Positions 26,826-54,392 of a stretch of 64,000 nt of DNA are shown one piece after another; positions within the stretch are counted from its first letter, which is position 1; each line of letters starts with the position of its first letter. The notes beneath the pieces are model-generated. The model did no database searches and was not told where the DNA came from. It was given only the letters and a program-made list of their open reading frames with translations. The stretch is from IMG/VR virus record IMGVR_UViG_3300037421_000106; one strand, written 5' to 3'. The DNA comes from a virus (lineage: Duplodnaviria > Heunggongvirae > Uroviricota > Caudoviricetes). Made by a program: the position numbers and the translations under genes.

Positions 26826-27050
26826 TCAGACGACACGATTCAGACTCGGATTCAGCGTGGGGTCGAGCGACGCTTCAGCTTCGCCCGTCATCATCAGCAC
26901 GTGTTCGAGCTCGGATTTCTGGGACTGTTCGACGTTCTCTTCAGCGGCTTGCTGATAAAAATCCTGTACGAGCGAATCCCACGTGCGAGCGCCGTAGGCC
27001 GAGGTATACCCCTCGACCTTCGCCATTGCTTCGCGATCAAGCTTTTCCAT
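26826..27050 (-). CDS. Small hypothetical acidic protein
   Basis: 74-aa ORF between portal and Mu-F genes. Confidence 0.3.
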   Translation of the reverse strand: MEKLDREAMAKVEGYTSAYGARTWDSLVQDFYQQAAEENVEQSQKSELEHVLMMTGEAEASLDPTLNPSLNRVV

Positions 27051-29196
27051 ATGGCTTCCTAAGGTGACCGGTTCCGAGCCAGGTCTTGAACTCGTTCATC
27101 GACACGCGATGTACGGACATGATGCGGTCGACGCCCTGCAGATCACTGTAGCTGGACACGTAGGCCGCACACGCGCGTGCCTGCGATGAGAACCCGAGCA
27201 TGCACTTGTGCTCATCAAAAAATCCGGTGCGCAGATCCTTCTGGTTGATGATGTACACGGTGTCCGCGCCGCGATCGGGCCCGAGGAAGCAATCCATTCC
27301 TTCGTCCGGACCTTCGGCCGAACCCGTGCCAATTACATAACCATAATCGGCCGCAAGAATAGCGCGCCATGGATTTTGTGGATCCCTAGAAACGCGTTCG
27401 GTGCCGCGCTGATTCTCGATGTGCAGTTTCAAACCATGAAACTCACACGTCACGGGGCCGCGCGCAGCATCATCGAACGGCCGCGCACCAGGCATCACCC
27501 CACTCGGCATGACATCGGGCTCGGGCAAAACGTTCGGCGGGTAGCCAGGCTCGCTGTACGGAATAGCGTGTCTCTTGTTGGTCGCGCCCGCGGAACCTGT
27601 CCATGCGGCGTCGCGATTCTTTTGATTCGGAGCGGCTGGCTTTTTGCCGGCCGTCGGCCCTCCAGGAACGGGCGGCTCATCTTCCATGCCCGGCATGACG
27701 ATCCCCGCGGCCGGAACCGGCACGTCAGCGGCCGCTTCGATGTCCTCCTCCGTGATGTTTGTCCACACGCCAGTTTCGTGCGATTGCTGCTTGAGCTCCT
27801 GCATCGCGGTCTTCGTGGACACGGTGCCCTTTTCTTCGGCGGCCAGGACGGTCTCGGTGATGGTCTTGGCGATAGTGGCCTTTTCGAGCTCGGTCGGTTG
27901 CCACAGGGGCTTGAACGCGATGCTCATCTCTTCATTCCACTTGATCCCGAGCGATTGCGCCATCAGCTGATACACGATCGTCATCGGATACAGCAGATCG
28001 GCGATTTGGCGCGCCTTGATCATGTCGTAGTAGTTGCGCATGTCCGATTCACCCGTGGCGTTCATGCCGGCGGGTGACGTACCGAACAGTTTCGTCTGCG
28101 GCATCTGCAGGGCGCCCGACAATTGCTGCCGGAACTCTTGCAGAATCTCGGCCAGCCCCGCGAACGCGGCGTGCTCATGACCTTCGTATTCGTCTTCCAG
28201 GTCCATCAGGGTGACGCCCTCGATCCCCTGCTGCGAACGCATCACTTCGAGCAGCACGCGCACGCCTTCCATCGCGACATCATTCGACCCGACTAGCTCT
28301 TTCAGGCCCTTCAACTTGTACGTGCGAATGAAAGACTTGTCGATCAGCTGCGCGGCACCGCTCGATCCGATATCAAATGCATTGATTCGGTCCTGAATCG
28401 TTTCGAGCACGGACAGGCCCCAGAGATTCTCCTGGATCGCTTGCCAGTACGGAAGCTCGTTCCCGAGCAATCGGATCACGCGCGAATGATGAATCTTCAT
28501 GCGCGGCAGGGCCGGCGCATCCGCAGTCACGCGGTAGAACATCGGCTTGCCGAATTGCGGGGAGGCGAAGTCCGTGACCAGCAATTCCAGGCTCGGGTCG
28601 ACCATCCAACGATCGAGCGGAAAAATTCCCTTGAACTGGTCTTTGCCGACGGTCTCGATCCTCAGCGGCGTGGAGGGGTCCTGATTGGCGACGATGATGA
28701 ATCCGAGGCACCCGCCGTACAGGCGCGACCACTTAAGGACGGAGCGGACGTTTGTCCAAATATTAAGTTTCGTGGCCTCGGCATCCATCTTACGGATGTC
28801 TTTCGGCTTCATCGGGCCGTTAAGAATGACCCCTTGGCGAGTCATGTCTTCCGGAATCACGTCGATGGCATTCTTGCAGACGAACTGCCCGCGGTACATC
28901 CACTCGACCAGCGTGCGGATCCGGGTCAGCGGGTTGAAACTTGAACTGGAGCTTGAAAGGATGTTCTGCGCGCCGAGCCCGAGCCGGTGCGTGTAGTTGA
29001 CGAACGAGTCCTGGAATTTGCCGCCGGCCGTCGCTTTCGCCATCGGGGTAACGGCGTCCATGCCGATACTCTCACGAGCCTTGCTGTCGGCGACTCTCGC
29101 GGAGCGTGCTACCTGAGTGACACCCACTCGTTTTGGCGCGCCGGCACCGTTACGCTTCCCGCCCCATCCGTTCGCCATCTTGAAACCTCGATTCAA
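27037..29196 (-). CDS. Portal protein with Pro-rich linker and ~190-aa C-terminal extension domain
   Basis: 719 aa, upstream of Mu-F-like gene in canonical terminase-portal-MuF order; residues ~500-560 Pro-rich (PVPAAGIVMPGMEDEPPVPGGPTAGKKPAAPN...YPPNVLPEPDVMPSGVMPG) followed by a separate globular domain (CEFHGLKLHIENQRG...GMDCFLGPDRGADTVYIINQKD). Confidence 0.55.
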   Translation of the reverse strand: MNRGFKMANGWGGKRNGAGAPKRVGVTQVARSARVADSKARESIGMDAVTPMAKATAGGKFQDSFVNYTHRLGLGAQNILSSSSSSFNPLTRIRTLVEWMYRGQFVCKNAIDVIPEDMTRQGVILNGPMKPKDIRKMDAEATKLNIWTNVRSVLKWSRLYGGCLGFIIVANQDPSTPLRIETVGKDQFKGIFPLDRWMVDPSLELLVTDFASPQFGKPMFYRVTADAPALPRMKIHHSRVIRLLGNELPYWQAIQENLWGLSVLETIQDRINAFDIGSSGAAQLIDKSFIRTYKLKGLKELVGSNDVAMEGVRVLLEVMRSQQGIEGVTLMDLEDEYEGHEHAAFAGLAEILQEFRQQLSGALQMPQTKLFGTSPAGMNATGESDMRNYYDMIKARQIADLLYPMTIVYQLMAQSLGIKWNEEMSIAFKPLWQPTELEKATIAKTITETVLAAEEKGTVSTKTAMQELKQQSHETGVWTNITEEDIEAAADVPVPAAGIVMPGMEDEPPVPGGPTAGKKPAAPNQKNRDAAWTGSAGATNKRHAIPYSEPGYPPNVLPEPDVMPSGVMPGARPFDDAARGPVTCEFHGLKLHIENQRGTERVSRDPQNPWRAILAADYGYVIGTGSAEGPDEGMDCFLGPDRGADTVYIINQKDLRTGFFDEHKCMLGFSSQARACAAYVSSYSDLQGVDRIMSVHRVSMNEFKTWLGTGHLRKPYGKA

Positions 29197-29221
29197 ATTG
29201 AATCAAGATGGTATCACCGAA

Positions 29222-29458
29222 TCAAGGCATGCAGTGCTGGTCTAGATCTTCGAGGAAGGGTTTCATCAGCCGGGCGAATTTTTCACCATCAAATTCGCCG
29301 GAGGAGGTGCATTGTGTGAATGCTCCGAGAAGAATCTGGGCGCCACAGCTGAAGCCTGTTTTGTACCCTGCGCACGCCGCCTGCCGAGTGGCCAGGCTGG
29401 CATTTTCACATGCCGTCATGGAGAATTCGGCCAACGACCCCGTGAGCGTGCGAATCAT
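29222..29458 (-). CDS. Hypothetical protein
   Basis: 78-aa ORF, accessory island. Confidence 0.3.
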   Translation of the reverse strand: MIRTLTGSLAEFSMTACENASLATRQAACAGYKTGFSCGAQILLGAFTQCTSSGEFDGEKFARLMKPFLEDLDQHCMP

Positions 29459-29721
29459 TTCCGTCCCATATTTCGGACCTTCTTATCGAAGGCTTCAAGA
29501 GTTGGCGCCGGTTGCCGATGGATGCTGTCGGTATCGAGCTTGGCCGCCGGCCGGGTCAAAGTTACGGTCAGACGATCGCCGACGCGCGCCATGTCCACAA
29601 TGATTGTGCTGGCTTCGCCGAGGCCGCCCTGCATACGATACGTGCGGTTGTCCTCGGCGTCAAGCTGGACCGCCGAATCGAGAGACAGCGCCTCGATGCG
29701 GACCAGGCTCATGACGGTCAC
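29455..29721 (-). CDS. Hypothetical protein
   Basis: 88-aa ORF, translationally coupled. Confidence 0.3.
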   Translation of the reverse strand: MTVMSLVRIEALSLDSAVQLDAEDNRTYRMQGGLGEASTIIVDMARVGDRLTVTLTRPAAKLDTDSIHRQPAPTLEAFDKKVRNMGRK

Positions 29722-29915
29722 GCAAACTGACTGGTATTCACGGTCTGCGGATTAAACACCGCAGAAGCACCACCAAGGGCCAGCAACACGTTCGCGACCG
29801 CGTCGGCCGCATTGTCCGTGTTCAGCGTGACGACGACCTGGGTGATGGTCTGCGCGCCGCTGAGCGCGTTCGTGACGTTGACCGGAATGGTCATGGTATG
29901 GGAAGCGACGGGCAT
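29718..29915 (-). CDS. Hypothetical protein
   Basis: 65-aa ORF. Confidence 0.3.
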   Translation of the reverse strand: MPVASHTMTIPVNVTNALSGAQTITQVVVTLNTDNAADAVANVLLALGGASAVFNPQTVNTSQFA

Positions 29916-30023
29916 GTGATTCTCCTAAGGAATAGGTGGAGTAGCGTGATAACCCACGCCGGTCACCTTACAACTCCGGGCAACCTTTCGTTGGTACGCA
30001 CGGGCTCTGTCTGCCGGTCTATT

Positions 30024-30620
30024 CTACGCGATCCTGTGCGTCGGTTGGGGCAGACGTGAGCTTGCGCCCAGAACCGGCCTCTGATCGAATGCTTCGCCGG
30101 CATTGGGTGCCACAATGACGGTGGTACCCGGATCGGCCAACACCGGGGGCGCGATCTCGACTGTGCCACCACCCGCCCGCACAACCTCGCCAGTGCGCGG
30201 ATCGACAGCATGGGGAACGCCAGTCTCGCGTGTCAGGCGACCGGCTTCAACGTCGCCGGCCGGATTAAGCCAGGTGCCGATCTCGACCATTTCACCTTCG
30301 CCATTCTGCGCGAAGCGGCCAGTACCCTTGAAATGTTTCCCCGTAGTTGCCGGGATTTGCGTCACTTGCAAATCCTTCGATTGTAGGATCGGATCTCCGG
30401 CTAGCGCTGATGCCTTCTTAGTGGGGCGCGGCGCGCCGCCACCTGATTCTTTCTTCGAGCGTGGGGCCGTAACGAAATCAAGCGCGGCCTGCAGCTGTTC
30501 ACGCCATACATGGTCATGAGGCGACCCGGGCTCATTTTCGTAGACAAATGACTGCAGCGGATCCATCTGCCCTGTGCGAGCCAGTGCGTCGTTGCATTCA
30601 TCCCAGGTCGGCAGTATCAC
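30024..30620 (-). CDS. Hypothetical protein
   Basis: 198-aa ORF. Confidence 0.35.
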   Translation of the reverse strand: MILPTWDECNDALARTGQMDPLQSFVYENEPGSPHDHVWREQLQAALDFVTAPRSKKESGGGAPRPTKKASALAGDPILQSKDLQVTQIPATTGKHFKGTGRFAQNGEGEMVEIGTWLNPAGDVEAGRLTRETGVPHAVDPRTGEVVRAGGGTVEIAPPVLADPGTTVIVAPNAGEAFDQRPVLGASSRLPQPTHRIA

Positions 30621-31420
30621 TTCGTTCCTCCACGTCGAGCGGCATTCGCGGCCACGATGGTCGGAAGTGCCAAGTCCAGCATGTTTCGACGCTGCGCAGC
30701 CTTACGATCCTCGACTGCCTTGTGATCGCCAAACAGCAGTTGTTTGATTCGCTTCTGGTTGTCGCGCGCGCCGGGAATGTTACTGTCGGGCCGGGCCATG
30801 CGTTCCCAGATCGAACGCTTCGCCGGGTTGTCGACGGGCTCTGGACCTGGATCTGGCAGGTATGGTGCTCGTAGATACGCGATCAGCTCGGGCCTGAAAT
30901 TGTCGATTGCCATGCGGAGCTCGATTGGAATCTGCGATCGCTGCATATTCACGTAGTCGGCATCTGGAAAAGTCGCGGTATCGATCAGTGCGCTGATCTC
31001 TGGCGGTGCGCCAACCCACGGCAGAGGGTTGTCCTTAGGATTCCCGTTCGCCACATCCTTCGGATCAGGAACCATGCGGGTCACCCACGGGGTAATGACC
31101 TTGATCATACCCATTGGGTCCGGATGATCGAGCATGATGGTGATTCCCATCGCGGCCGCAGTACTGATGATCGTTTCGGCGATCGAGGGTTTGGCAGGCT
31201 CGGGAGGCGGTAGATCATCGATCGTGAGCTCTTGCCCACCCCCATCGCGCTCCTCGATGAACTCTATCAGATCCGCGCGACATTTTCGAATCTCTTGCAG
31301 CAGGTCTGCCGGAACCTTACGCTTCGGAGTAGCCGTGAGTTTTCCATCCGTGGGATTGATGCGCAGCTTGACACCGCGCTTTTCGCAGGCCTCTACGATC
31401 TCAGCGGGCTTCACGTTCAA
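30617..31420 (-). CDS. Protein with TubC_N-like N-terminal docking motif
   Basis: N-terminus AEIVEACEKRGVKLRINPTDGKLTATPKRKVPADLLQEIRKCRADLIEFI matches TubC_N pattern (L..GV.L...G.L....P.G.L...L...L..L...L). Confidence 0.35.
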   Translation of the reverse strand: MNVKPAEIVEACEKRGVKLRINPTDGKLTATPKRKVPADLLQEIRKCRADLIEFIEERDGGGQELTIDDLPPPEPAKPSIAETIISTAAAMGITIMLDHPDPMGMIKVITPWVTRMVPDPKDVANGNPKDNPLPWVGAPPEISALIDTATFPDADYVNMQRSQIPIELRMAIDNFRPELIAYLRAPYLPDPGPEPVDNPAKRSIWERMARPDSNIPGARDNQKRIKQLLFGDHKAVEDRKAAQRRNMLDLALPTIVAANAARRGGTK

Positions 31421-31815
31421 TCACCGTCGAAATCGCCGTCGGTATCAAGCACCGGCAGCGGAGGATATTGGACACCACGCACGGCGCCGATTATGGATTC
31501 ACGCGCATTGCTGATCAAAGCCTGCAGTTCGGCCGGCAGCGGCGTCGGAGTGTTGTCGGGTTGGAACGGCATCGTGACCGTCATCGTGGTGAAGTTGTTC
31601 GACAGAATGACATCGCCTCCGAGCGCCCGAATCCAGTCGAGCGCATACTGGCCTTTTGTCACTCGCAAACCTGGCGTACCTCCATTGAACATTCCGTCAG
31701 GGGCCCCATTGGGCTCGAACACGTTAGGCGGGTACGGCATATCAGGCTCCGTGCAAATCAGGCAGTTGAAACATGAACCGGAATTGCTCAGCATTGTCAG
31801 GATCACACTCACCAA
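31417..31815 (-). CDS. Hypothetical protein (C-terminus DTDGDFDGD)
   Basis: ORF with overlapping neighbours; start uncertain. Confidence 0.3.
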   Translation of the reverse strand: MVSVILTMLSNSGSCFNCLICTEPDMPYPPNVFEPNGAPDGMFNGGTPGLRVTKGQYALDWIRALGGDVILSNNFTTMTVTMPFQPDNTPTPLPAELQALISNARESIIGAVRGVQYPPLPVLDTDGDFDGD

Positions 31816-32137
31816 GGACCGCTTCTCGCACCATTCGCGGAGTCACTTCGTCATCCATGTCCCATAACGAATGAACGGTTTCGCGCACGCGAGACACGTC
31901 TTCTTTGTCTCGGACGTATGTAAACCAACGACCGTCTTCGAACATCTTCCGCAGACCTTCGTCCGCTTCGTCGACCGACCAACCCTGTATTTTCAGAGTC
32001 ATGAATCGTTCGGCGTCGGATGCATACGATACACATTCACCCGGCTGCAGGGTATGTGCGTGCGAGCCGCAGGACACTAAAACAAACATGCTACCGAGAA
32101 TCGATGCTGTCCAGAAGGCTCGCGTCAATACGACCAT
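31742..32137 (-). CDS. Putative lipoprotein
   Basis: MVVLTRAFWTASILGSMFVLVSC-GS signal peptide with lipobox (LVSC). Confidence 0.4.
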   Translation of the reverse strand: MVVLTRAFWTASILGSMFVLVSCGSHAHTLQPGECVSYASDAERFMTLKIQGWSVDEADEGLRKMFEDGRWFTYVRDKEDVSRVRETVHSLWDMDDEVTPRMVREAVLGECDPDNAEQFRFMFQLPDLHGA

Positions 32138-32138
32138 G

Positions 32139-32522
32139 TCAATCCTTATTCGGCACACCGTGCGATTGGCGCAACGACTCCATCAACCGCTCTTTGCAGT
32201 TGCTCTCCACTATATCATGGACCTGTTTCGCCGACAGCGTAAGATTACCGTAAATCCAATTCAGGGTATTGATTGCCTGCTGATCGTCGTCGTCGTCTTT
32301 GTAGATGCACGTCAGCCGATGAGCGGGATCGCGACAGATCTCCAGAGTCGCCGCCATCACACCGAGTTGCATCTTGAGGGACGCGTTCTTGACGTCGAAC
32401 GCTTCCTGCTTCGCGTCCCACGCGAACGCGTGGCATTCGGTTTCGTTCATCGTGTGGGCAACGGCGGCCCCGGCAACAGCATAGATCGCGAGCATGATCG
32501 AAAACGACAGGCTTCTCATCAC
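32139..32522 (-). CDS. Secreted protein (signal peptide)
   Basis: MMRSLSFSIMLAIYAVAGAAVA-HT signal peptide; Cys-containing, poly-Asp stretch. Confidence 0.4.
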   Translation of the reverse strand: MMRSLSFSIMLAIYAVAGAAVAHTMNETECHAFAWDAKQEAFDVKNASLKMQLGVMAATLEICRDPAHRLTCIYKDDDDDQQAINTLNWIYGNLTLSAKQVHDIVESNCKERLMESLRQSHGVPNKD

Positions 32523-33193
32523 AGGGTCCTTTCAAATGCGGCCACAGCCGCGGGAACGTATGGGCGAATCAGGTCGAGCATGGCTTCGGCGTAGACCCGT
32601 ATTTCAAACTGCGCATGCTCGTGCAAACGAAGCCTAAGGAAACCGAACAAGTTGTGCAGATCGACGGTCGCGAAGTGCTTGCTGTACGTGTTCAGTGGCA
32701 GCACGCCGCGCGCGAGCTCGCGGGGGCAACCGAGCGACAGGAGTTTTCTGTAGCTCCGGAACGATTCCACACACGCGCATCGGATCTCGTCCTGTATCTC
32801 AGCCGCATTCTCATTTACCTCGTCAGTCCGCATCTGCTTGTTGTGTTTCGACTGCGTCGTGATTTGGTCGAGCTCCGGCACGTAGAAACACTCTTCGAGC
32901 TCGCTGTAGCGTCCGGACTGCTCGTTGTACTTCCAGGTGCGGTGCCGATGCCACTGGCGGAAGTTGAAGATCGGAGCCTTCGCCTCGAAACAGAAGATCA
33001 CATGCTCGAATGGCGACGTGTGCTTGTTCTCCATCAGGTAAGCGATCAGCTTCTCGTCCGATCCGTCGTTGCGCGGCGCGGCGTTGTACGACACCCGGGC
33101 CGCGCGAACGATCATCTGGTCGTCGCCCATGTGGTCGACCAGGCGCACCATGCCGTGATCCAGCACGGCGCGCCAATTGAGGATAGGCTCGCT
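32519..33193 (-). CDS. thyX: Flavin-dependent thymidylate synthase ThyX
   Basis: ThyX signature RHRTWKYNEQSGRY (RHR-x7-S-x-RY) plus C-terminal ...RELARGVLPLNTYS; start taken at MSEPIL (upstream part of ORF is overlap). Confidence 0.75.
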   Translation of the reverse strand, partial: SEPILNWRAVLDHGMVRLVDHMGDDQMIVRAARVSYNAAPRNDGSDEKLIAYLMENKHTSPFEHVIFCFEAKAPIFNFRQWHRHRTWKYNEQSGRYSELEECFYVPELDQITTQSKHNKQMRTDEVNENAAEIQDEIRCACVESFRSYRKLLSLGCPRELARGVLPLNTYSKHFATVDLHNLFGFLRLRLHEHAQFEIRVYAEAMLDLIRPYVPAAVAAFERTL

Positions 33194-33633
33194 CATTTCG
33201 TCAGGTACGCCAGGGTCGACTCGATCGCGGCAACGTGCGCCGCGGGTACGAAGATCATCTTGCCGTCGGCCGGCGCCGGGCTCTGGCCAGGTTCGAAACC
33301 TGCGGCATCTCGCACCGCGGTCCAAAGTGCCGTGGCATCCACGGGGCGATCGGCGGTCCACACGGCCGCGTAGTAGAGTGCAGTCACGGCGGCGAGCAGT
33401 GCCCCACCGTCGTTCTCGTTGACATACTCGGTCAGCAGCACTATGGCGCGCGCCATGTACGACAGGTTCTCCGAATACAGACCTTCTCGATAGAATCCAT
33501 CGATCGACAGCCGCATCTTCTCGACTAGTTGCTCGACAGGCATCGCCACTATATGGGGAAACTCTTTCGGAGGCGCCGTTTCAATGGTCGCGACCAACTT
33601 GCTCTTCGGTGTCATGCTACCTCCATAGTGCAT
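33193..33633 (-). CDS. Hypothetical protein
   Basis: 146-aa ORF coupled to thyX. Confidence 0.35.
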   Translation of the reverse strand: MHYGGSMTPKSKLVATIETAPPKEFPHIVAMPVEQLVEKMRLSIDGFYREGLYSENLSYMARAIVLLTEYVNENDGGALLAAVTALYYAAVWTADRPVDATALWTAVRDAAGFEPGQSPAPADGKMIFVPAAHVAAIESTLAYLTK

Positions 33634-33932
33634 TGCAGGGGATGTCTGTGATTGCTTGCCGTGCCACGAACTTGGTAGACTCGAGTCTCGGCAATTTGAT
33701 GAGAATATACACCGGCCACGGCACGCCCTTCAGTATGAACCTTGAGCATGATATCGACCGCTTCGAAAGCGGTCTTGCCGAAGATCTGGATCAACAACTC
33801 AACCACGAACTCGGCCGGTGTGATGTCATCATTGATCAGAATCACAGCCCACAGTGGGGGCGGGGCTGGGGGTTGGATTTGACTGATCATACCCGGAACG
33901 ATTTCGCCGGGCACTGCGTAGGTGGCGCTCAT
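33612..33932 (-). CDS. clpS: ClpS-like ATP-dependent Clp protease adaptor
   Basis: WAVILINDDITPAEFVVELLIQIFGKTAFEAVDIMLKVHTEGRAVAGVYSHQIAETRVYQV...HPLQCTMEV aligns by eye with E. coli ClpS core ([24 protein letters not shown]...[25 protein letters not shown]...HPLLCTLE). Confidence 0.65.
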   Translation of the reverse strand: MSATYAVPGEIVPGMISQIQPPAPPPLWAVILINDDITPAEFVVELLIQIFGKTAFEAVDIMLKVHTEGRAVAGVYSHQIAETRVYQVRGTASNHRHPLQCTMEVA

Positions 33933-33933
33933 T

Positions 33934-34092
33934 TCATTCCCCACTGAGACGCGTATAGGCGCCCGCACGTTCGAGCTCTTCGATCTCTTCCTCGACTTCT
34001 TCGAGCGTCTCGCGATGACCGAGCCCAGTACGTAACGCCACGCTGACGCGAACCAGAATACCCCGCAGTCGGTTGCGATCCTCGGGAGTCAT
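33934..34092 (-). CDS. Small hypothetical protein
   Basis: short ORF, start at internal Met estimated. Confidence 0.2.
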   Translation of the reverse strand: MTPEDRNRLRGILVRVSVALRTGLGHRETLEEVEEEIEELERAGAYTRLSGE

Positions 34093-34298
34093 CGCGTCGT
34101 GTCCCGAGTGATCAACAGATCCGGGAAGTGACCCCATGGATGCACACTCATACCGAACGCGTAGTTACGGCATTGCTCCATGTCAATGAAATCTTTCGAA
34201 TGACTAACTTCCAGTCGTCCGTCGTACCAAACCTCCCGGCGACTGCTGGTACAGTTGTCGAACGTACCGGTTGGATGCTTCGGTTTCGTGGCCATCAC
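34089..34298 (-). CDS. Hypothetical protein
   Basis: 69-aa ORF. Confidence 0.3.
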   Translation of the reverse strand: MMATKPKHPTGTFDNCTSSRREVWYDGRLEVSHSKDFIDMEQCRNYAFGMSVHPWGHFPDLLITRDTTR

Positions 34299-34405
34299 TC
34301 AGTATCCTTCCAGTTGAATTCGCTCGGAGTCACTCGAACGAACATCCATGCAAGCAGGACGCCGAACATGACCAGTAATGATAGGAACACTTGATCGGGA
34401 GTCAT

Positions 34406-34603
34406 TCAGTCCTCCACGAATTGCCGGATCTCGGCGTCGAATTGGGTGTCGCGCTCGCGGGCGCCCAGGATGTGCTTGGCCTCTTCGAGAGACTTGAACT
34501 TGTCGCGCGTGCGACGGCCGGCGCGCTCGGGCGGGTTGAGCATGTTGCGGATGTTCCGCTCGACCGCTTCTTCGTACCGCTGCTGTCGGGTCTTAGCCAT
34601 CAC
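34406..34603 (-). CDS. Hypothetical protein
   Basis: 65-aa basic ORF. Confidence 0.3.
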   Translation of the reverse strand: MMAKTRQQRYEEAVERNIRNMLNPPERAGRRTRDKFKSLEEAKHILGARERDTQFDAEIRQFVED

Positions 34604-34959
34604 TTCCCCTTGGCGAGCCGACTGACACGGGCGCGTTCTTTCTTCGCCACCTTCAGCAGATCGCTCCAGACGTCCTGCTCGATGCGTATGCGCAACCGCT
34701 CGATGAAATTCATCGCATTGACGGCCTGCTCCATGACCATCACCGGGCGGGCGGGTTTGTTGCCGATGTCGAACCAGGCGAGCAGAACGTCGCGCAGGGC
34801 GTCGATCTCGCGGACATTCAGGCGGATGTTTCTGATTGCGGTCGCGGTGAGTCTGTTGCGGTCCGGCATGTATTGATACAGATCAGAATCGACCGACTTC
34901 ATAGGCGTTGCCTCCATCGAGTGAACAGTCATTATGGCAGTAAATGACGGTCGTGTCAA
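34600..34959 (-). CDS. Hypothetical protein
   Basis: 119-aa ORF. Confidence 0.3.
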   Translation of the reverse strand: MTRPSFTAIMTVHSMEATPMKSVDSDLYQYMPDRNRLTATAIRNIRLNVREIDALRDVLLAWFDIGNKPARPVMVMEQAVNAMNFIERLRIRIEQDVWSDLLKVAKKERARVSRLAKGK

Positions 34960-34967
34960 TAAATATC

Positions 34968-35099
34968 GTCGTCATTCTGATCAGCAATCTGCCGGATCAG
35001 ATCCAGGATCCAACAGCCGGCCGCCACGAGGGCTGCAGCGCACATTCCTGCAGTAACTGCTTGACAAACCGTCAGATCGTCGATCATCAGAATTTCCTC
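34968..35099 (-). CDS. Small membrane protein (43 aa), not in ORF track
   Basis: GAGGAA SD then MIDDLTVCQAVTAGMCAAALVAAGCWILDLIRQIADQNDDDIY*; one TM segment. Confidence 0.3.
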
Positions 35100-35236
35100 A
35101 AAACGAACATCAGATGATCGTACGCTTCGCGCGGAGTGGATCCTCTACGCGCAACCCATCCTAGCCGGCAATACCATACACCGCACTCGCGCCAAAGACG
35201 AGGCTTATGAGCCATTCGAATCACTCCGCGAAAAAA

Positions 35237-35833
35237 TTAAAACTCGGAACGAAGCGACAGGCTGAAAACGCCCCATCCCAATCCTTGGTACTGCGTCTGT
35301 ACCGAACCAACGTGGACATTCTCCGTGCGCAAGAGACGATAGTTGAAAATCAATTCCGCCACGGGAGTGCGATATCCGATCCCCGCCAGCGGTGACACAA
35401 GGGTTTGAGTGTTGTCCACTCGTAGACCCTGATGCGGCTTGACCGTCCCATCGGTCCAATCGGGGATATTCATCGCGAATCCCGAACGCGCGACGCCCAC
35501 CCCGATCTGCGCGAACGCCGGGCCCCAGTGAGGCTCGTACGCCGCCCAAATCCCATACGGATGCTCTACCCCGTACCAGTGGCTGTACGGAACACGCCCG
35601 TCACGACAGGCCGGCTCGTCTGCGCCACATGCGATCGCAGACGATGTCATCCTCCCCAGGCGCTCTGCCGACACGCTCCAGTTTGAGCCGACCAGCGTGA
35701 CACCATATGCCACACCTTCGTTGCGAAACGAATGAGGCTTCTCGGCTTGGTACCACGTACCATTCGGAGGATTCGTTTCGTAGGAGCCGCCGAGCAGCAG
35801 CTGCAGACATGCGGTAAACAGGCAATTCGTCAT
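35237..35833 (-). CDS. Outer-membrane beta-barrel protein (moron-like)
   Basis: Signal peptide MTNCLFTACLQLLLGG; aromatic-rich alternating pattern; C-terminal ...LSLRSEF ending in Phe (OMP C-terminal signature). Confidence 0.45.
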   Translation of the reverse strand: MTNCLFTACLQLLLGGSYETNPPNGTWYQAEKPHSFRNEGVAYGVTLVGSNWSVSAERLGRMTSSAIACGADEPACRDGRVPYSHWYGVEHPYGIWAAYEPHWGPAFAQIGVGVARSGFAMNIPDWTDGTVKPHQGLRVDNTQTLVSPLAGIGYRTPVAELIFNYRLLRTENVHVGSVQTQYQGLGWGVFSLSLRSEF

Positions 35834-36018
35834 TGCGTGGACTCCCTAATTGCTTGACGGGCCAGGTCGAGAATCTCGCCCGGAGTTATAGTTGGGCCGC
35901 CGAACGGACAGCGCGCGTGGCGTGCCTTGATCCATTCGAGATGCTTCCGGTCGAGTGCAGCGAGAAGCACAACGGCTTGCGCAGGACTGAGTGTCGGAAC
36001 CCCAACGGTGTTGAACAT
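35830..36018 (-). CDS. Hypothetical protein
   Basis: 62-aa ORF. Confidence 0.3.
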   Translation of the reverse strand: MFNTVGVPTLSPAQAVVLLAALDRKHLEWIKARHARCPFGGPTITPGEILDLARQAIRESTQ

Positions 36019-36033
36019 GTCGTTACCCCCGAT

Positions 36034-36190
36034 TCATACGTGAACCCACAGAATGACTGCGCAGAGTACTGCAACAAGCGCGTAGTCGAACGCCGCGCCG
36101 TGATGAGCGTATTTCCCGTACGAGAATTCCATGAGGGCGCGCAGAGTATAAATTGCGCATGTGAAGTAAAGCAGCCAGTGCACCTTCATC
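36034..36190 (-). CDS. Small membrane protein (52 aa), not in ORF track
   Basis: MKVHWLLYFTCAIYTLRALMEFSYGKYAHHGAAFDYALVAVLCAVILWVHV*; two hydrophobic segments. Confidence 0.3.
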
Positions 36191-36436
36191 TCCGGTTGCG
36201 GATCCAATGCAAGTGATGATGCTGGTCAAGTGATTCGGCGCGGCGCGACCGCCTGCATTGGCCTATGAACGGTGTGCCCGGCAAAGCCAGGTATTCCACC
36301 GAAAGTTCGGCACGTCGGGCGGGTCACAGGTAATTAGCGCCTCGCCGCTTCGACTCGCAACCGGCGGCGCCGCCGGCCCTATCACTTGAACAGCATCATC
36401 GAGAGCGAGACTGTAGCACATGATCCGATCTGATGC

Positions 36437-36466
36437 AAGAAAAAAATAGGCCCCGAAGGGCCTATT
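36437..36466 (-). terminator. Rho-independent terminator (minus strand)
   Basis: AATAGGCCC-CGAA-GGGCCTATT hairpin followed on minus strand by TTTTTTTCTT, immediately after stop of 36470-37333. Confidence 0.7.
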
Positions 36467-36469
36467 AGG

Positions 36470-37333
36470 CTATCGCCTAACTGCGTCATCTCCACCACCG
36501 CCCCCGCCGCCACTCGGCGGAGAGACGTAATGCTGCTGCAGACCATTCCCCCAAATCGGAATGTAGGAGAAGAACGTAGCATTGTCGAGGATGCCGCAAT
36601 TGAATCCACCGCATCCCGAACCCGTGAACGTCACCAGATACGTTCCCGGCTGCAACACGTTCCCCGTGCTTTGGTTCAGGACCCATTCGTCGCACTGCAC
36701 CCAGGTGTTGCAGGCGTAGGTGGCGTGATTGAATTGCGCCACCGTCCCATCGCCCAAAAGAGCCGGCTGACCCGTCGAGACCCATTGCTGCAACATGCAA
36801 GGGGATCCGCCGCAGAAGCCCTGCCCCATCACCGGAACCGTGTTTCCGTTGGCATCAGTCGTAGTCTCCGGCACCGCCTGAACGATCGAGACTAGAGGCG
36901 CGCCATTAACGTCTGTTGCCGGCATGTATGTCAGATACGTCGGCGGAGGACATCCGCGCCCTGAACACACGCCTCGCCCTTCCTGACCGTACAACGTCCA
37001 CGGCATGTTGGTGATGACCCATCCGCCGCCAGCTGCCGTAGCTGCCGCGTCTGACGTGTAATAGCCGGAGAAACTGGCCTGGATAGCACCGGAGAAATCT
37101 TCAGTCACCAGAGGGTTGCCAGTGCCGCCAATGCGGAAAGTGGTCTGCGTGTATGTGCCGTTGACCAGTGCCCCTTGATAGATAGTCTCACGTCCGCTGT
37201 TACCCGCGGTGCTGATCTGCGGCGGAAACGGATTGGGGGTAGGACCCGCGCATGGCGCAGCGTGAGTGCACGTCTGCGCGAGCGCAAACGTCGAAAACAG
37301 CAATGCGAAACATCCTGCAATGAATTGCTTCAT
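36470..37333 (-). CDS. Secreted Cys-rich protein with poly-Gly C-terminus
   Basis: MKQFIAGCFALLFSTFALA-QTC signal peptide; many Cys; ends SGGGGGGGDDAVRR; own terminator. Confidence 0.45.
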   Translation of the reverse strand: MKQFIAGCFALLFSTFALAQTCTHAAPCAGPTPNPFPPQISTAGNSGRETIYQGALVNGTYTQTTFRIGGTGNPLVTEDFSGAIQASFSGYYTSDAAATAAGGGWVITNMPWTLYGQEGRGVCSGRGCPPPTYLTYMPATDVNGAPLVSIVQAVPETTTDANGNTVPVMGQGFCGGSPCMLQQWVSTGQPALLGDGTVAQFNHATYACNTWVQCDEWVLNQSTGNVLQPGTYLVTFTGSGCGGFNCGILDNATFFSYIPIWGNGLQQHYVSPPSGGGGGGGDDAVRR

Positions 37334-37438
37334 TTTCCCGCTTCCTTTATTCAACATCCCGAGAACCGCTCGGTACGGTGGTTCGATAGCCTGATCTTAC
37401 CCGAAATCAAAGTCAACTCATCCGATCGGTTGAGGGTG

Positions 37439-37464
37439 AAAAAAATCCCCGCATATGCGGGGAT
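37439..37464 (-). terminator. Rho-independent terminator (minus strand)
   Basis: ATCCCCGCA-TA-TGCGGGGAT hairpin followed on minus strand by TTTTTTTCACC. Confidence 0.65.
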
Positions 37465-37603
37465 TGTCAGTTGGTTGTCACCACGACTGTAACTGAGATC
37501 GGTATCGTGGCGTAAATGCGACGGTGTCTCCGTCTTTCTCGCCATCTCCGCCACTTGGGTGAGTACCGCCAGTTAAGCTCGCGGACTAGCCCAAGGACCG
37601 AGC

Positions 37604-37915
37604 TCACGACAACGTGACTGTCACGGACAGCGGAATCGTCGCCGTCACATTCGGCACCGTAAACGGCAGCGAGACCACCGCGGGGGCGGCCGGGCGGGCC
37701 GTTTGCGCGTCAATCCGTTCCGCCGAGATCGTGTAGGTGCCAGGGGCAACGTTGTTGAACGTGACCGACACTTGCGTGCCCGTGCCCGTGGTGTCTTGCC
37801 CACTTTGCGTGGACACGATCGCGCCGGTGCTGTCCAGCAGATTGAAGTTGACCGGCCCTACCAGACCCACGTTAACCGGGCTGCCGAGGCTGGCGACTGC
37901 GTTTGCATTCATCAT
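37604..37915 (-). CDS. Hypothetical protein (possible Ig-like fold)
   Basis: About 103 aa from MMNANAVASLG; T/S/V-rich beta-strand character. Confidence 0.3.
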   Translation of the reverse strand: MMNANAVASLGSPVNVGLVGPVNFNLLDSTGAIVSTQSGQDTTGTGTQVSVTFNNVAPGTYTISAERIDAQTARPAAPAVVSLPFTVPNVTATIPLSVTVTLS

Positions 37916-37987
37916 GGTGATTCCTTTCGAAGAAGTGAATCGAGAGTATGCCACGCTGCAGTGCAGCGTGGGGACCCTCTGATTCGA

Positions 37988-38155
37988 TTACAGCTTTTTC
38001 ACTGCTGATTGAGCAGCTGCCACATCGGCCTTGATCTTTTGAGCGATCATCGGATGCTTCGCCTGCACGAACACGCCAACCACGACAGCGGCTGCGTGAG
38101 TGCTGATCAGCAATGCGTTGGTAGCCAGAAATGCGTACACGGAACTGAACATGGG
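37988..38155 (-). CDS. Small membrane protein (55 aa), not in ORF track
   Basis: GGAG SD then MFSSVYAFLATNALLISTHAAAVVVGVFVQAKHPMIAQKIKADVAAAQSAVKKL*. Confidence 0.35.
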   Translation of the reverse strand, partial: PMFSSVYAFLATNALLISTHAAAVVVGVFVQAKHPMIAQKIKADVAAAQSAVKKL

Positions 38156-38334
38156 ATTCTCCCAAAAGAATGAGCCTGCGATGGTACTCCGAATTTGACT
38201 GTTGCGCGGATGCCACTTTCGCGTGTCAACTGTCTGGAAGTATCGACCCTGTATCCCGCCAGCAAGTGATATATGGTTACCAGTAGGTCTTTGGCTGATT
38301 GGCGGAACAGGACACCATAGTTCTAGACAGTCGA

Positions 38335-49660: not shown

Positions 49661-50230
49661 ATGCGCATTGGCATTCTGTACATGCACGTGGGTCCAACTG
49701 GGAAGATCTATATTGGAAAGACATGGCAGCCAAAAGGCGAGCGCTTCAACGGAAATTGGGCGCGTCAATACACCAAATCCATGGCGGCCGATGCGTTGCG
49801 TTACGGCCGTAAAGCTTTCGAAACGATCGAGCTCTATCGGATAGAGAGCGAGGACCCGTCATATGACGACCAGCAACTGGCGATGCTGGAGATCATGGCT
49901 ATTGAATTATTCAACAGCAGGACTCCGCGCGGATACAACATCGCCCGAGGCGGCGGCCGAGCGCCAAGCGCGCCTGAAACATGCGCCAAGATCAGCGGCG
50001 AAGGAAACCCGATGTTCGGTCGGAAACACACGAAGCGAACAGTGAAACAAATGACAGAGGCGCGTCGGGCAGAAAATCTCCCGGAAGAACAACGCATAGC
50101 GATGCGAGAGGCAAATAAGTTGCGTCCGCGCAACGCGCGCGGGCATTATATCAAACTCGGGACTGAGTATCATCCCAATACACTTAAGCGGCGAGGTATA
50201 AAACCCTTGACCATCCAGCCGGGGGTATGA
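49661..50230 (+). CDS. GIY-YIG homing endonuclease with NUMOD3 repeats
   Basis: GILYMHVGPTGKIYIGKT...YNIARGG (GIY-YIG core) followed by NUMOD3-like repeats (PETCAKISGEGNPMFGRKHTKRTVKQM). Confidence 0.75.
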   Translation: MRIGILYMHVGPTGKIYIGKTWQPKGERFNGNWARQYTKSMAADALRYGRKAFETIELYRIESEDPSYDDQQLAMLEIMAIELFNSRTPRGYNIARGGGRAPSAPETCAKISGEGNPMFGRKHTKRTVKQMTEARRAENLPEEQRIAMREANKLRPRNARGHYIKLGTEYHPNTLKRRGIKPLTIQPGV

Positions 50231-51640: not shown

Positions 51641-51907
51641 ATGGAACTCGAACAAATGGTTGATCTGTTAGTAGCGGCCGCCAAAAAGGCATCCGAATCT
51701 ACCGGCAAACCTTTGTCAGAACTTGGCACGGACAAAGCTAGGTTTATAGCCGATATGCAGAGTGAGCCCGAAATCTTTGCACTCTTCAATGAGTTCGGAA
51801 AGCTTTATACGAATGCCGAGCTCGCGCAATTGAATCAATCCGGAGAGCTCGCCGGTAAAGCTGCAACACTCGATGCGCTGCTGTCGCGCGGGGTGTCATT
51901 CACGTGA
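51641..51907 (+). CDS. Hypothetical protein
   Basis: 88-aa ORF. Confidence 0.3.
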   Translation: MELEQMVDLLVAAAKKASESTGKPLSELGTDKARFIADMQSEPEIFALFNEFGKLYTNAELAQLNQSGELAGKAATLDALLSRGVSFT

Positions 51908-52365
51908 TGAAGCATTCATTGAAATGGGACAAACGGTTCCTTCATCTGGCTGAGGTCGTGGCCAGCTGGAGCAAGGATCCGTCGACCCAGGTCGGGGCCG
52001 TCATTGTCGACGCTGATAAGCGCATCGTCAGCGTCGGCTTTAACGGATTCCCTCGTCACATGCAAGACGGTGCTGAGCTCTATGCCAACCGCGAGTTCAA
52101 GTACAGTCGCATCATCCACGGGGAAATGAATGCGATCTTGCATGCGCGCGAATCGCTAGCCGACATGACGCTATATACTTGGCCGGTGCTACCGTGTGAT
52201 CGCTGCGCGGTGCATGTGATCCAATCTGGCATCGCGAGAGTAGTGGCGCCGACGTGTCCTGCGCACATGGTCGAACGGTGGGGATCATCGCTTGCCAAGA
52301 CTCGAGAATTCTTTAGAGAGGCTCGCGTGTCATTCAACGAAGGTGGAGCGGGGTACGACGTATGA
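51904..52365 (+). CDS. dCMP (deoxycytidylate) deaminase
   Basis: Zinc-binding cytidine/dCMP deaminase motifs HGEMNAI and PCDRCA. Confidence 0.7.
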   Translation: MMKHSLKWDKRFLHLAEVVASWSKDPSTQVGAVIVDADKRIVSVGFNGFPRHMQDGAELYANREFKYSRIIHGEMNAILHARESLADMTLYTWPVLPCDRCAVHVIQSGIARVVAPTCPAHMVERWGSSLAKTREFFREARVSFNEGGAGYDV

Positions 52366-53987: not shown

Positions 53988-54392
53988 ATGGGGCAAGCAA
54001 AGAACCGCGGTACCAAGGAGCAACGCATCGCAGCAGCAGTTGCTGCGGGCCGCCACGCTGGTGCACCCGAGCGCACCAAACCGTATGCGAACCGCATGCC
54101 GTTGACCACCCCGATGTTGAACTATCTGTGGGGGCAATTCAAGGTCGTGGGCGACCGGACGATCAATGAGATCCGCTCCGAGGCGCTGCTAGCCCAGAAG
54201 GCGGCGCAAGCGCGGCGCTTCGCCGAATCGCAGCAGGCTTCGGCACAGAACCTTGTCGACGAGAAGACGTTTAAGACGAACGCGCGCGTCATCGAGGAGA
54301 TGATTAAGGGTCCAGCGCAAGCGGAATTGCTGCAGCTGGACAGCGGCATCGATCAAGGGGCCAAAGACCTGATGGATATGCTCCATGCGTAA
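53988..54392 (+). CDS. Hypothetical protein
   Basis: 134-aa ORF. Confidence 0.35.
   Translation: MGQAKNRGTKEQRIAAAVAAGRHAGAPERTKPYANRMPLTTPMLNYLWGQFKVVGDRTINEIRSEALLAQKAAQARRFAESQQASAQNLVDEKTFKTNARVIEEMIKGPAQAELLQLDSGIDQGAKDLMDMLHA

What the first reader, a model, noticed from the sequence alone, without database searches (positions are those of the whole stretch)
33612..33932. Phage-encoded ClpS adaptor homolog
Clear ClpS core (ILINDDITP.EFVVELL...LKVHTEGRAVAGVY...AETRV...HPLQCT). ClpS delivers N-degron substrates to ClpAP and inhibits other ClpA substrates. A phage copy could redirect host proteolysis, for example to protect phage proteins or to destabilise host defense or antitoxin proteins. 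ClpS is rarely annotated in phages, and it sits next to thyX and unknown small genes in the accessory island.
Basis: partly seen in the sequence, partly recalled or inferred. Interest (0 to 1): 0.7.

Follow-up and report, generated by a model that had tools for sequence, protein, structure and literature searches.

The report
Phage ClpS with an open specificity gate
A mid-sized (about 72 kb) uncultivated phage carries an intact copy of the bacterial protease adaptor ClpS in which the one residue that normally stops the adaptor from marking valine- or isoleucine-started proteins for destruction is replaced by alanine or glycine, so the phage may rewrite which host proteins get degraded.

Summary
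The ORF at 33612-33932 on the minus strand (106 aa) is a full-length ClpS (Pfam PF02617, E=7.8e-30). Its predicted structure superposes on solved ClpS at 0.4-0.9 A. The window is a myovirus genome with no Clp ATPase or peptidase of its own, so the adaptor would have to use host ClpAP.

The gene is not decayed. Core dN/dS is 0.03-0.08. All alpha-amino-binding and pocket residues are kept. The N-terminal extension is 26 residues with a proline-rich junction.

The gatekeeper Met40 (E. coli numbering, which applies 1:1) is Ala here, Gly in one sister phage, and Ala in three further lineages of this clade (105-aa sister form; 69% and 66% identical). It is Met in 139/141 close and 141/148 representative homologs. 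The best sequence match in PDB is the engineered C. crescentus M53A mutant, which I recall (from memory) accepts N-terminal Val and Ile.

ClpS lies in a 9.15-kb island between the TerL and portal genes that 20 relatives lack. Its stop overlaps (ATGA) the start of a conserved 140-aa unknown gene.

Phage ClpS is already known in jumbo phages, and 248 IMG/VR contigs encode a relative. Open-gate ClpS also occurs in other virus-like contigs. Verdict: a new variant of a known kind. The mechanism is inferred, not shown.

The parts
33612..33932 (-). ClpS coding sequence (106 aa plus TGA stop). Residue numbering coincides with E. coli ClpS.
   Evidence: Pfam PF02617 E=7.8e-30. PDB phmmer hits to C. crescentus and E. 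coli ClpS at E=1e-23 to 1e-18. AF2 model with core pLDDT >93; Foldseek rmsd 0.4-0.9 A to solved ClpS.
33855..33932 (-). N-terminal extension, residues 1-26, predicted disordered, ending in the junction PPAPPP.
   Evidence: pLDDT <50 for residues 1-14. dN/dS is 0.33-0.72 here against 0.03-0.08 in the core. In E. coli the extension's length, not its sequence, matters, at least 14 residues are needed for delivery, and Pro-Pro at the junction protects ClpS from degradation (PMC8666677).
33612..33854 (-). Folded ClpS core, residues 27-106, with N34 D35 D36 T38 H66 (alpha-amino contacts) and L32 V43 M62 V65 L99 (pocket) all conserved.
   Evidence: Column counts against 141 close homologs and 148 cluster representatives. 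7-19 synonymous against 1-4 non-synonymous differences between the diverged variants.
33813..33815 (-). Gatekeeper codon: GCC = Ala40, where cellular ClpS has Met40.
   Evidence: Read directly from the sequence. Met in 139/141 and 141/148 homologs, with Ala only in members of this phage clade. Gly in sister contig UViG_3300021479, where it is the only core amino-acid change. The best PDB sequence match is the M53A mutant 3g1b.
33193..33615 (-). 140-aa ORF of unknown function. Its ATG overlaps the ClpS stop (ATGA), suggesting translational coupling.
   Evidence: The overlap is read from the sequence. The ClpS/ORF pair with ATGA overlap is conserved in lineages where the ORF is 83% and 61% identical. 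No Pfam, PHROG or PADLOC hit. The AF2 model is poor (pLDDT 62).
33934..34092 (-). 52-aa upstream ORF whose stop lies 1 nt before the ClpS start codon.
   Evidence: and JGI gene calls on near-identical contigs.
34931..34959 (-). Sigma-70-like promoter (TTGACA-17 nt-CATAAT, TG upstream, 11 of 12 matches) ahead of the tightly packed run orf100-orf64-orf36-orf68-orf52-ClpS-orf140-ThyX.
   Evidence: Consensus scan only. The sequence was read. It is identical in the close variants examined. It is not evidence of function on its own.
32519..33196 (-). ThyX (flavin-dependent thymidylate synthase), overlapping the end of orf140 by 4 nt.
   Evidence: Pfam Thy1 E=5.1e-52. Gene calls.
29179..38334 (-). 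Lineage-specific island of about 9.15 kb between the terminase large subunit and the portal gene. It holds about 25 mostly unknown small genes, including ClpS.
   Evidence: The TerL-portal gap is 9.15 kb in ClpS-bearing phages and 0-2.2 kb in 20 related contigs (major capsid protein 57-79% identical). None of those relatives has ClpS, ThyX or orf140.

Best explanation
This is a functional, phage-encoded ClpS-type N-recognin. Proposed sequence of events (inferred): the gene is expressed from a small-gene operon in an accessory island. The folded core docks on the N-domain of the host's ClpA. The 26-residue disordered N-terminal extension enters the ClpA pore. Proteins bound through their N-terminal residue in the ClpS pocket are then handed to host ClpAP. 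Directly recognised ClpA substrates (for example ssrA-tagged proteins) would be disfavoured at the same time, as with cellular ClpS. The special feature is the residue at the pocket entrance. Met40, which sterically excludes beta-branched side chains, is Ala here (Gly in a sister phage). The phage adaptor is therefore predicted to accept N-terminal Val and Ile in addition to Leu, Phe, Tyr and Trp. This is what the engineered M40A (E. coli) and M53A (C. crescentus) mutants do. Val is a residue that methionine aminopeptidase routinely exposes. The phage could therefore turn a class of normally stable host proteins into ClpAP substrates, or capture one particular Val/Ile-started target, while competing with the host's own ClpS. 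Shown here: homology, fold, residue conservation, purifying selection, clade-wide gatekeeper replacement, and absence of a phage Clp ATPase or peptidase. Inferred: ClpA binding, delivery, the widened specificity, and any benefit to the phage.
For: Family and fold: Pfam E=7.8e-30, PDB sequence hits at E=1e-23, and an AF2 core model with pLDDT >93 that superposes on solved ClpS at rmsd 0.4-0.9 A. Binding residues: N34, D35, D36, T38, H66 and pocket residues L32, V43, M62, V65, L99 are all present. N-terminal extension: correct length, disordered, with the junction PPAPPP, matching requirements described in PMC8666677. Selection: core dN/dS is 0.03-0.08 and the extension 0.33-0.72. Gatekeeper in this clade: Ala in the window and in lineages L118-120, L122-124/P0161 (69% identical) and P0162 (66% identical), and Gly in UViG_3300021479. 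Gatekeeper elsewhere: Met in 139/141 and 141/148 other homologs. Literature: Met40 is described as the residue that excludes beta-branched side chains (PMC12493166; bioRxiv 10.1101/2024.06.12.598358). PDB entries 3g1b and 3g3p are the M53A mutant and are the best sequence match. ClpA contact helix: E82 is kept, K84 is Arg, and E79 is Gln here but Glu in the L122 lineage. Dependence on the host: no Clp ATPase or peptidase was found in the window or in the remaining 4.7 kb of the sister genome. Conservation: the pairing with orf140 and the island position are conserved.
Against: There is no experimental evidence of any kind. The host is unknown and is only suggested to be betaproteobacterial, so the presence of host ClpA is assumed. 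E79, one of two acidic ClpA-contact residues, is Gln in this lineage, against D/E in 139/141 close homologs. Tyr/Phe37 next to the pocket loop is Ile/Val in the clade, and the effect of this is unknown. The claim that M40A/M53A admits Val and Ile rests on my recollection of Wang et al. 2008 and Roman-Hernandez et al. 2009. Neither paper could be opened here. If the phage avoided making itself a target, few of its proteins should start Met-Val. The count is 1/106 against 3.6% in ClpS-less relatives, which is in the expected direction but not significant (P=0.10). NCBIfam equivalog cutoffs are not reached.
Confidence: 0.6

Rival explanations
1. The protein acts mainly as a ClpA blocker rather than a delivery adaptor. 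By occupying ClpA N-domains and the pore with its extension, it shuts down ClpAP degradation of directly recognised substrates, such as phage proteins or ssrA-tagged products, and displaces host ClpS. On this view the pocket change is secondary.
For: Cellular ClpS is known to inhibit ssrA-tagged and other direct ClpA substrates and to lower the ClpA ATPase rate. This needs only the core docking surface and extension residues 12-25 (PMC8666677). The phage protein keeps the extension length, the proline junction and most of the docking helix.
Against: Every N-degron contact residue is invariant under strong purifying selection. The one pocket-entrance residue is specifically and repeatedly small across lineages 66-70% identical. 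Neither pattern is needed for a pure blocker. The two activities are not exclusive in cellular ClpS.
Confidence: 0.2
2. The gatekeeper change tunes the adaptor to one specific target instead of broadening specificity generally. The target could be a host defence or regulatory protein, or the product of the translationally coupled 140-aa gene. That partner might act as a co-adaptor, an anti-adaptor or a substrate.
For: The ATGA overlap and the ClpS-orf140 pairing are conserved in three lineages. P0162 is also followed by an ORF with a 4-nt overlap. Natural gatekeeper variants in other ClpS are associated with altered, not simply wider, selectivity: Arg in plant ClpS1 (PMC7966870) and Tyr in Leptospira ClpS1 (PMC12493166).
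Against: The conserved C-terminal domain of orf140 also occurs in small proteins of other phages that have no ClpS nearby, so it is not an obligate ClpS partner. No family or fold could be assigned. No candidate target is identifiable from sequence.
Confidence: 0.15
3. It is a passenger gene picked up from a bacterium, with no phage-specific role, or it is on the way to decay.
For: It sits in a lineage-specific island of small unknown genes that relatives lack. It scores below the NCBIfam equivalog cutoffs.
Against: Core dN/dS is 0.03-0.08. The gene is kept in at least four lineages down to 66% identity, at the same position in the island. The nearest cellular ClpS is only 59-63% identical over the core, so the capture was not recent. 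The clade is distinct by score: 125-130 bits against 96 or less for single-domain cellular homologs.
Confidence: 0.05

Closest known systems
Proteobacterial ClpS (E. coli ClpS, C. crescentus ClpS; Pfam PF02617)
   Same: Same length (106 aa, identical numbering to E. coli) and 44-52% identical in the core. Same fold (rmsd 0.4-0.9 A). The alpha-amino-binding and pocket residues are identical. It has a disordered N-terminal extension with a proline junction.
   Different: Gatekeeper Met40 is Ala/Gly, Tyr37 is Ile/Val, and Glu79 is Gln. The gene lies in a phage island rather than a clpS-clpA operon. It scores below the NCBIfam equivalog cutoffs.
Engineered gatekeeper mutants: C. crescentus ClpS M53A (PDB 3G1B, 3G3P) and E. 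coli ClpS M40A
   Same: The same substitution at the same position. 3g1b is the top sequence hit in PDB (E=1.2e-23), ahead of the wild type.
   Different: Those are laboratory mutants. This is a natural allele fixed in a phage clade, it includes a Gly variant, and it is accompanied by Y37I/V. The specificity of the natural protein is untested. The mutants' acceptance of Val and Ile is cited from memory (Wang et al. 2008 Mol Cell; Roman-Hernandez et al. 2009 PNAS).
ClpS of jumbo phages (PA5oct, Atu_ph07, Phosso, Serratia BF, Vibrio 2.275.O)
   Same: A virus-encoded ClpS homolog presumed to bring targets to host ClpAP (PMC7824862; PMC6102473). It is embedded among auxiliary genes.
   Different: Those genomes are 284-490 kb, and some also encode ClpA, ClpX or ClpP. 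Identity to this protein is only 32-44%. Their gatekeepers are Met (PA5oct, Phosso), Leu (Atu_ph07) or Phe (Vibrio, Serratia BF), and several lack canonical N34 or D36. This phage is about 72 kb and has no Clp ATPase or peptidase.
Natural gatekeeper variants in cellular ClpS: A. thaliana ClpS1 (Arg), Leptospira ClpS1 (Tyr)
   Same: They set a precedent that the gatekeeper position varies in nature and sets N-degron selectivity (PMC7966870; PMC12493166).
   Different: Those carry bulky or charged residues. Here the side chain is removed altogether (Ala/Gly), which is the change expected to widen specificity rather than shift it.
Other open-gate ClpS on virus-like metagenomic contigs
   Same: Ala/Gly at the gatekeeper with NDDxTP[AG][DE]F. 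The pattern found 7 IMG/VR stretches and 50 metagenome stretches, and 52 of the 57 are ClpS-like. The largest group (about 26 sequences, GC 31-41%) has no clpA in the fetched flanks. In two loci examined it sits near phage-type ClpX-like and IF-3-like genes.
   Different: These are unrelated clades (different GC, under 50% identical) with different residues at position 37. Two stretches have clpA adjacent and so are probably cellular (L325, L329). None has been characterised.

Membership tests
ClpS (PF02617) | Significant full-length match to the family profile | tested here: met
   Pfam E=7.8e-30, 102.9 bits against a cutoff of 23, profile positions 2-80 of 80.
ClpS (PF02617) | ClpS alpha/beta fold (three helices packed on a three-stranded sheet) | tested here: met
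   AF2 model with core pLDDT 93-98, elements E28-33 H40-51 H55-68 E70-76 H78-94 E100-105. Foldseek against PDB: TM (target-normalised) 0.86-0.99 and rmsd 0.4-1.0 A to E. coli and C. crescentus ClpS.
ClpS (PF02617) | Residues that bind the substrate alpha-amino group (N34, D35, D36, T38, H66) | tested here: met
   All are present. They are invariant or nearly invariant in 141 and 148 homologs.
ClpS (PF02617) | Hydrophobic specificity pocket (L32, V43, M62, V65, L99) | tested here: met
   All are present. The pocket list comes from PMC12493166.
ClpS (PF02617) | Gatekeeper Met40 that excludes beta-branched N-terminal residues | tested here: not met
   Ala40 (codon GCC at 33813-33815). Gly in a sister contig. 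Met in 139/141 and 141/148 homologs.
ClpS (PF02617) | ClpA N-domain docking residues (E79, E82, K84) | tested here: inconclusive
   Q79, E82, R84 here, and E79, E82, R84 in the L122 lineage. The role of the two acidic residues is described in bioRxiv 10.1101/2024.06.12.598358. No complex could be modelled.
ClpS (PF02617) | Disordered N-terminal extension of at least 14 residues with a proline junction | tested here: met
   26 residues with junction PPAPPP. pLDDT <50 for residues 1-14. The sequence is free to vary and the length is kept at 25-29 residues across lineages. Requirements are taken from PMC8666677.
ClpS (PF02617) | Genomic pairing with clpA (clpS-clpA operon) | tested here: not met
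   No ClpA, ClpP or Lon match among the window ORFs tested, nor in the remaining 4.7 kb of the sister genome. The neighbours are small unknown genes and thyX.
ClpS (PF02617) | [quoted passage not shown] | not testable with these tools
   This needs biochemistry.
NCBIfam ClpS equivalogs (NF000672, NF000669, NF000670 and others) | Score above the curated equivalog cutoff | tested here: not met
   The best score is 104.4 bits against a cutoff of 112 (NF000672). The others are further below.
Jumbo-phage ClpS (PHROG 27368 / 15940) | Match to the phage ClpS PHROG profile | tested here: met
   phrog_27368 E=3.3e-22 and phrog_15940 E=8.8e-08. Identity to cultured jumbo-phage proteins is only 32-44%.

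The most novel reading that the evidence does not exclude
The phage encodes an N-recognin that rewrites the host's N-degron code. With the gate removed, N-terminal Val (left on many normal proteins after methionine removal) and Ile become destabilising. Host ClpAP is thereby turned on a broad, predictable slice of the host proteome for shut-off, amino-acid recycling or removal of defence proteins. Phage proteins escape by rarely starting Met-Val. The recurrence of Ala/Gly gatekeepers in several unrelated virus-like ClpS clades would then be convergent evolution of a viral strategy.
Probability: 0.2. Interest if true: 0.8.

Novelty: new variant of a known kind. Interest (0 to 1): 0.6.

Why it matters
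ClpS is the bacterial reader of the N-degron code, and its specificity is thought to be guarded by one methionine. A natural ClpS lacking that guard, kept under strong selection in a phage that must rely on host ClpAP, would be the first indication that viruses alter the rule that decides which proteins are unstable, beyond simply using host proteases. The idea can be tested directly with established peptide-binding and X-GFP degradation assays and an A40M revertant. Naturally open-gate ClpS proteins are also potential reagents for binding N-terminal Val and Ile, as used in protein-sequencing chemistries that rely on ClpS-family binders (my own knowledge, not checked here). If the protein behaves like ordinary ClpS, the finding reduces to one more auxiliary host-derived gene in a phage.

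Tried and rejected
- Primary papers: those on the M40A/M53A mutants (Wang 2008, Roman-Hernandez 2009 and 2011, Schuenemann 2009) are not held. Text searches for M40A/M53A found nothing. That step rests on memory, on PDB entry titles and on secondary statements.
- Self-avoidance test: I made my own codon-model gene calls (106 genes, consistent with JGI calls on sister contigs). Val at position 2 is 1/106 against 35/968 in ClpS-less relatives, P=0.10, which is inconclusive. A first GC3-based gene caller was discarded because it missed ClpS itself.
- orf140: no Pfam, PHROG or PADLOC family. The AF2 model was too poor (pLDDT 62, pTM 0.30) for a fold search. Its conserved C-terminal motif also occurs in phages without ClpS, so it is not an obligate partner.
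- Host identification: no tRNA genes and no near DNA match among cultured phages. There are only weak hints. The nearest named cellular ClpS come from Sulfuricella and Usitatibacter. Capsid relatives occur in MAGs of Burkholderiales, Limnohabitans, Paraburkholderia and other betaproteobacteria, but also in Acidobacteriota and Nitrospiraceae.
- 'Ralstonia phage YO084_1', the best hit among cultured 'phages', was rejected as a phage ClpS. The record is UNVERIFIED_ORG, and clpS there is followed by a clpA N-terminus, so it is host DNA.
- Gatekeeper frequency in viral ClpS: the IMG/VR profile scan cannot give it, because its search pattern required Met at that position.
- Defence or anti-defence annotation of the island genes: no PADLOC hits.

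Full report
**1. What is there**

An upstream GTG at 33968 would add 12 residues. Three things favour the ATG:
- The preceding 52-aa gene stops 1 nt before it.
- A GGGGA element lies 5 nt upstream.
- Homologs on related contigs (105-106 aa) begin at the same place.

The protein matches Pfam ClpS (PF02617) over the whole profile: E=7.8e-30, 102.9 bits against a gathering score of 23. It matches PHROG 27368 at 3.3e-22. It also matches several NCBIfam ClpS models at up to 104 bits, but none of their equivalog cutoffs (112-149) is reached.

Against PDB sequences it hits C. crescentus and E. coli ClpS at E=1e-23 to 1e-18. An AlphaFold2 model built from 47 sequences has pLDDT 93-98 across residues 27-106 and below 50 for residues 1-14.

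**2. The setting**

The window is a myovirus genome. It encodes DNA polymerase, primase, helicase, large terminase, portal, major capsid protein, tail sheath and baseplate proteins.

- It is about 96% identical in DNA to IMG/VR contig UViG_3300037852_000220 (71.8 kb).
- It has no close cultured relative. There is no megablast hit, TerL is 34% identical or less, and the best capsid match is 61% to Edwardsiella phage vB_EpM_ZHS.
- ClpS lies in a run of tightly packed small genes: orf100, orf64, orf36, orf68, orf52, ClpS, orf140, ThyX.
- A near-consensus sigma-70-like promoter precedes this run at 34959..34931. This is a consensus match only, although it is identical in the close variants examined.
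- The whole block sits between the terminase and portal genes. That gap is 9.15 kb in the ClpS-bearing phages and 0-2.2 kb in 20 related contigs (capsid 57-79% identical). None of those relatives has ClpS, ThyX or orf140.
- No Clp ATPase or peptidase was found among the window ORFs tested, nor in the 4.7 kb of the sister genome that lies outside the window. Any ClpS activity must go through a host unfoldase.

**3. Intact or decayed**

Residue numbering coincides exactly with E. coli ClpS.
- The alpha-amino contacts N34, D35, D36, T38 and H66 are all present. The pocket residue list is from PMC12493166.
- The pocket residues L32, V43, M62, V65 and L99 are all present.
- The N-terminal extension is 26 residues and ends in PPAPPP. 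[quoted passage not shown]

Between the diverged natural variants of this phage, the core shows 7-19 synonymous against 1-4 non-synonymous differences (dN/dS 0.03-0.08). The extension evolves almost freely (dN/dS 0.33-0.72).

**4. The unexpected feature**

The top sequence match in PDB is not wild-type ClpS but 3g1b, the C. crescentus M53A mutant (entry titles). The phage protein reads NDDITPAEF where cellular ClpS reads NDDYTPMEF. The gatekeeper Met40 (Met53 in C. crescentus) is Ala, encoded by GCC at 33813-33815.

Distribution of the gatekeeper residue:
- Among 141 close homologs from the 5.8-billion-protein search, 139 have Met. The only other Ala is the sister phage.
- Among 148 representatives from an exhaustive search of 1.84 billion cluster representatives, 141 have Met. 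The only two with Ala (P0161 and P0162, 69% and 66% identical) are the query's nearest relatives. They score 125-130 bits, against 96 or less for all other single-domain hits.
- Both of those relatives lie on phage-like contigs with the same gene arrangement.
- In sister contig UViG_3300021479 the residue is Gly, and this is the only amino-acid difference in the whole core.

A small residue at this position is therefore an old, maintained trait of the clade.

The literature available here describes Met40 as the residue that lets Phe, Trp, Tyr and Leu in and keeps beta-branched side chains out (PMC12493166; bioRxiv 10.1101/2024.06.12.598358). From memory, the M53A/M40A mutants mediate degradation of substrates with N-terminal Val or Ile (Wang et al. 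2008; Roman-Hernandez et al. 2009). I could not open those papers.

Two further clade-specific changes are unexplained:
- Tyr/Phe37 is Ile/Val.
- Glu79, one of two acidic ClpA-contact residues, is Gln in this lineage but Glu in the L122 lineage. E82 is kept and K84 is Arg.

**5. Most likely mechanism**

The best-supported reading is a working adaptor that docks on host ClpA and reprograms ClpAP, with a pocket widened to admit Val and Ile as well as the canonical residues. Methionine aminopeptidase exposes Val on ordinary proteins (established knowledge). This could therefore destabilise a class of host proteins, or one specific target, while competing with the host's own ClpS.

Rivals:
- The protein is mainly a ClpA blocker that protects phage proteins. 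This is plausible and not exclusive, but it does not explain the selected pocket.
- The gate change is tuned to one target, possibly involving the translationally coupled 140-aa gene.
- The gene is a functionless passenger. This is disfavoured by the selection pattern and by its retention across lineages.

I tested one prediction of the broad-specificity idea, namely that the phage's own proteins should avoid Met-Val starts. The count was 1/106 against 3.6% in ClpS-less relatives, which is in the right direction but not significant (P=0.10).

**6. The coupled neighbour**

The ClpS stop overlaps the start of a 140-aa ORF (ATGA).
- The pair and the overlap are conserved where the ORF is only 83% and 61% identical.
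- The ORF has no family assignment, and its structure model is unreliable.
- Its C-terminal motif (LYYAAVW.ADRPVD..LWTAVRDAAGF.PG.SP) is invariant across 18 small phage proteins. Some of these sit next to RNA ligase genes in phages without ClpS. It is therefore not an obligate ClpS partner.

**7. Comparison with what is known**

Phage ClpS as such is not new.
- It is annotated in jumbo phages of 284-490 kb.
- Iyer et al. 2021 interpreted it as bringing targets to host ClpAP (PMC7824862), and it was noted in Atu_ph07 (PMC6102473).
- 248 IMG/VR contigs encode a relative.
- Cultured jumbo-phage copies are only 32-44% identical to this one. Their gatekeepers are Met, Leu or Phe.
- The best 'phage' hit, Ralstonia phage YO084_1, is really host clpS-clpA DNA.

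A pattern search for NDDxTP[AG][DE]FV found 7 IMG/VR stretches and 50 metagenome stretches. 52 of the 57 are ClpS-like and fall into several unrelated clades.
- The largest clade (about 26 sequences, GC 31-41%) has no clpA in the fetched flanks. In two loci examined it lies near phage-type ClpX-like and IF-3-like genes.
- Two stretches do have clpA next door and are probably cellular.

Open-gate ClpS is thus rare, recurrent and apparently mostly viral. I could not make an unbiased census.

**8. Verdict**

This is a real, intact, selected phage ClpS. As a member of PF02617 it passes the profile, fold, binding-residue and N-terminal-extension tests. It fails the gatekeeper and operon-context tests. 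The ClpA-docking test is inconclusive.

It is a new variant of a known kind. The function is inferred, but a simple biochemical experiment would settle it.

Noticed in passing
window 27037-29178 (-): The portal protein carries an extra C-terminal domain of about 135 residues (585-718). It matches PHROG 'minor head protein'/DarB-like families and is listed as Pfam InPase (PF18823) in JGI calls on sister contigs. It may be an ejected effector fused to the portal.
   Followed up: no
window 33193-33615 (-); loci L129, L131, L132: The C-terminal motif LYYAAVW.ADRPVD..LWTAVRDAAGF.PG.SP of the 140-aa ORF is invariant across 18 small phage proteins with no family assignment. In other phages these proteins sit just downstream of an RNA ligase gene.
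   Followed up: partly
window 33822-33824 (-), ClpS residue 37: Position 37 is Tyr or Phe in 143 of 148 representative ClpS but Ile/Val in this phage clade. In the AT-rich open-gate clade it is Ala, Ser or Arg. The co-variation with the gatekeeper is unexplained.
   Followed up: partly
window 51904-52365 (+) and 32519-33196 (-): The phage encodes a dCMP/cytidine deaminase (Pfam E=9.5e-21) in addition to ThyX, suggesting it makes its own dUMP and dTMP supply.
   Followed up: no
window 55647-56177 (+), 54825-55640 (+), 2310-2933 (+), 30617-31414 (-): Several auxiliary-looking proteins: an SPFH/Band 7 protein, a LysM-containing protein, a TPR-repeat protein, and a 265-aa protein with a TubC_N docking-domain-like N-terminus.
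   Followed up: no
L112 (GenBank ON170137.1, 'Ralstonia phage YO084_1'): This UNVERIFIED_ORG 'phage' record carries canonical clpS followed directly by the N-terminus of clpA. It is bacterial chromosomal DNA, not a phage ClpS.
   Followed up: yes
L113, L115, L116, L114, L117 (jumbo phages): In Atu_ph07 and Phosso, ClpS is flanked by thymidine kinase and a small heat-shock protein. In PA5oct it is flanked by a heat-shock protein. In Vibrio 2.275.O and Serratia BF it is flanked by IF-3. Here it is next to ThyX. ClpS recurs next to thymidylate-metabolism or proteostasis genes.
   Followed up: no
L310-L366 (pattern hits), e.g. L316 9275-11030, L354 7960-9688: A GC-poor (31-41%) clade of about 26 open-gate ClpS (FNNDDATPADF) occurs on contigs that also carry a ClpX-like AAA+ protein (phrog_4339) and an IF-3-like factor. 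These are probably fragments of large freshwater phages.
   Followed up: partly
window 61977-63886 and 54387-54813, compared with L150: The primase region is only about 80% identical in DNA to the sister contig, against about 96% elsewhere. The sister contig has about 0.9 kb where the window has about 0.4 kb (54387-54813). Both indicate local mosaicism.
   Followed up: no
window 49661-50230 (+): A 189-aa ORF has a weak NUMOD3 motif (E=8e-4), which may mark a homing-endonuclease-like gene in the replication module.
   Followed up: no
window 36445-36466 (-) and 37444-37465 (-): Two strong intrinsic-terminator-like hairpins (9-bp stems followed by a T-run) lie inside the TerL-portal island, upstream of the ClpS operon promoter. 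They suggest the island is split into separate transcription units.
   Followed up: no
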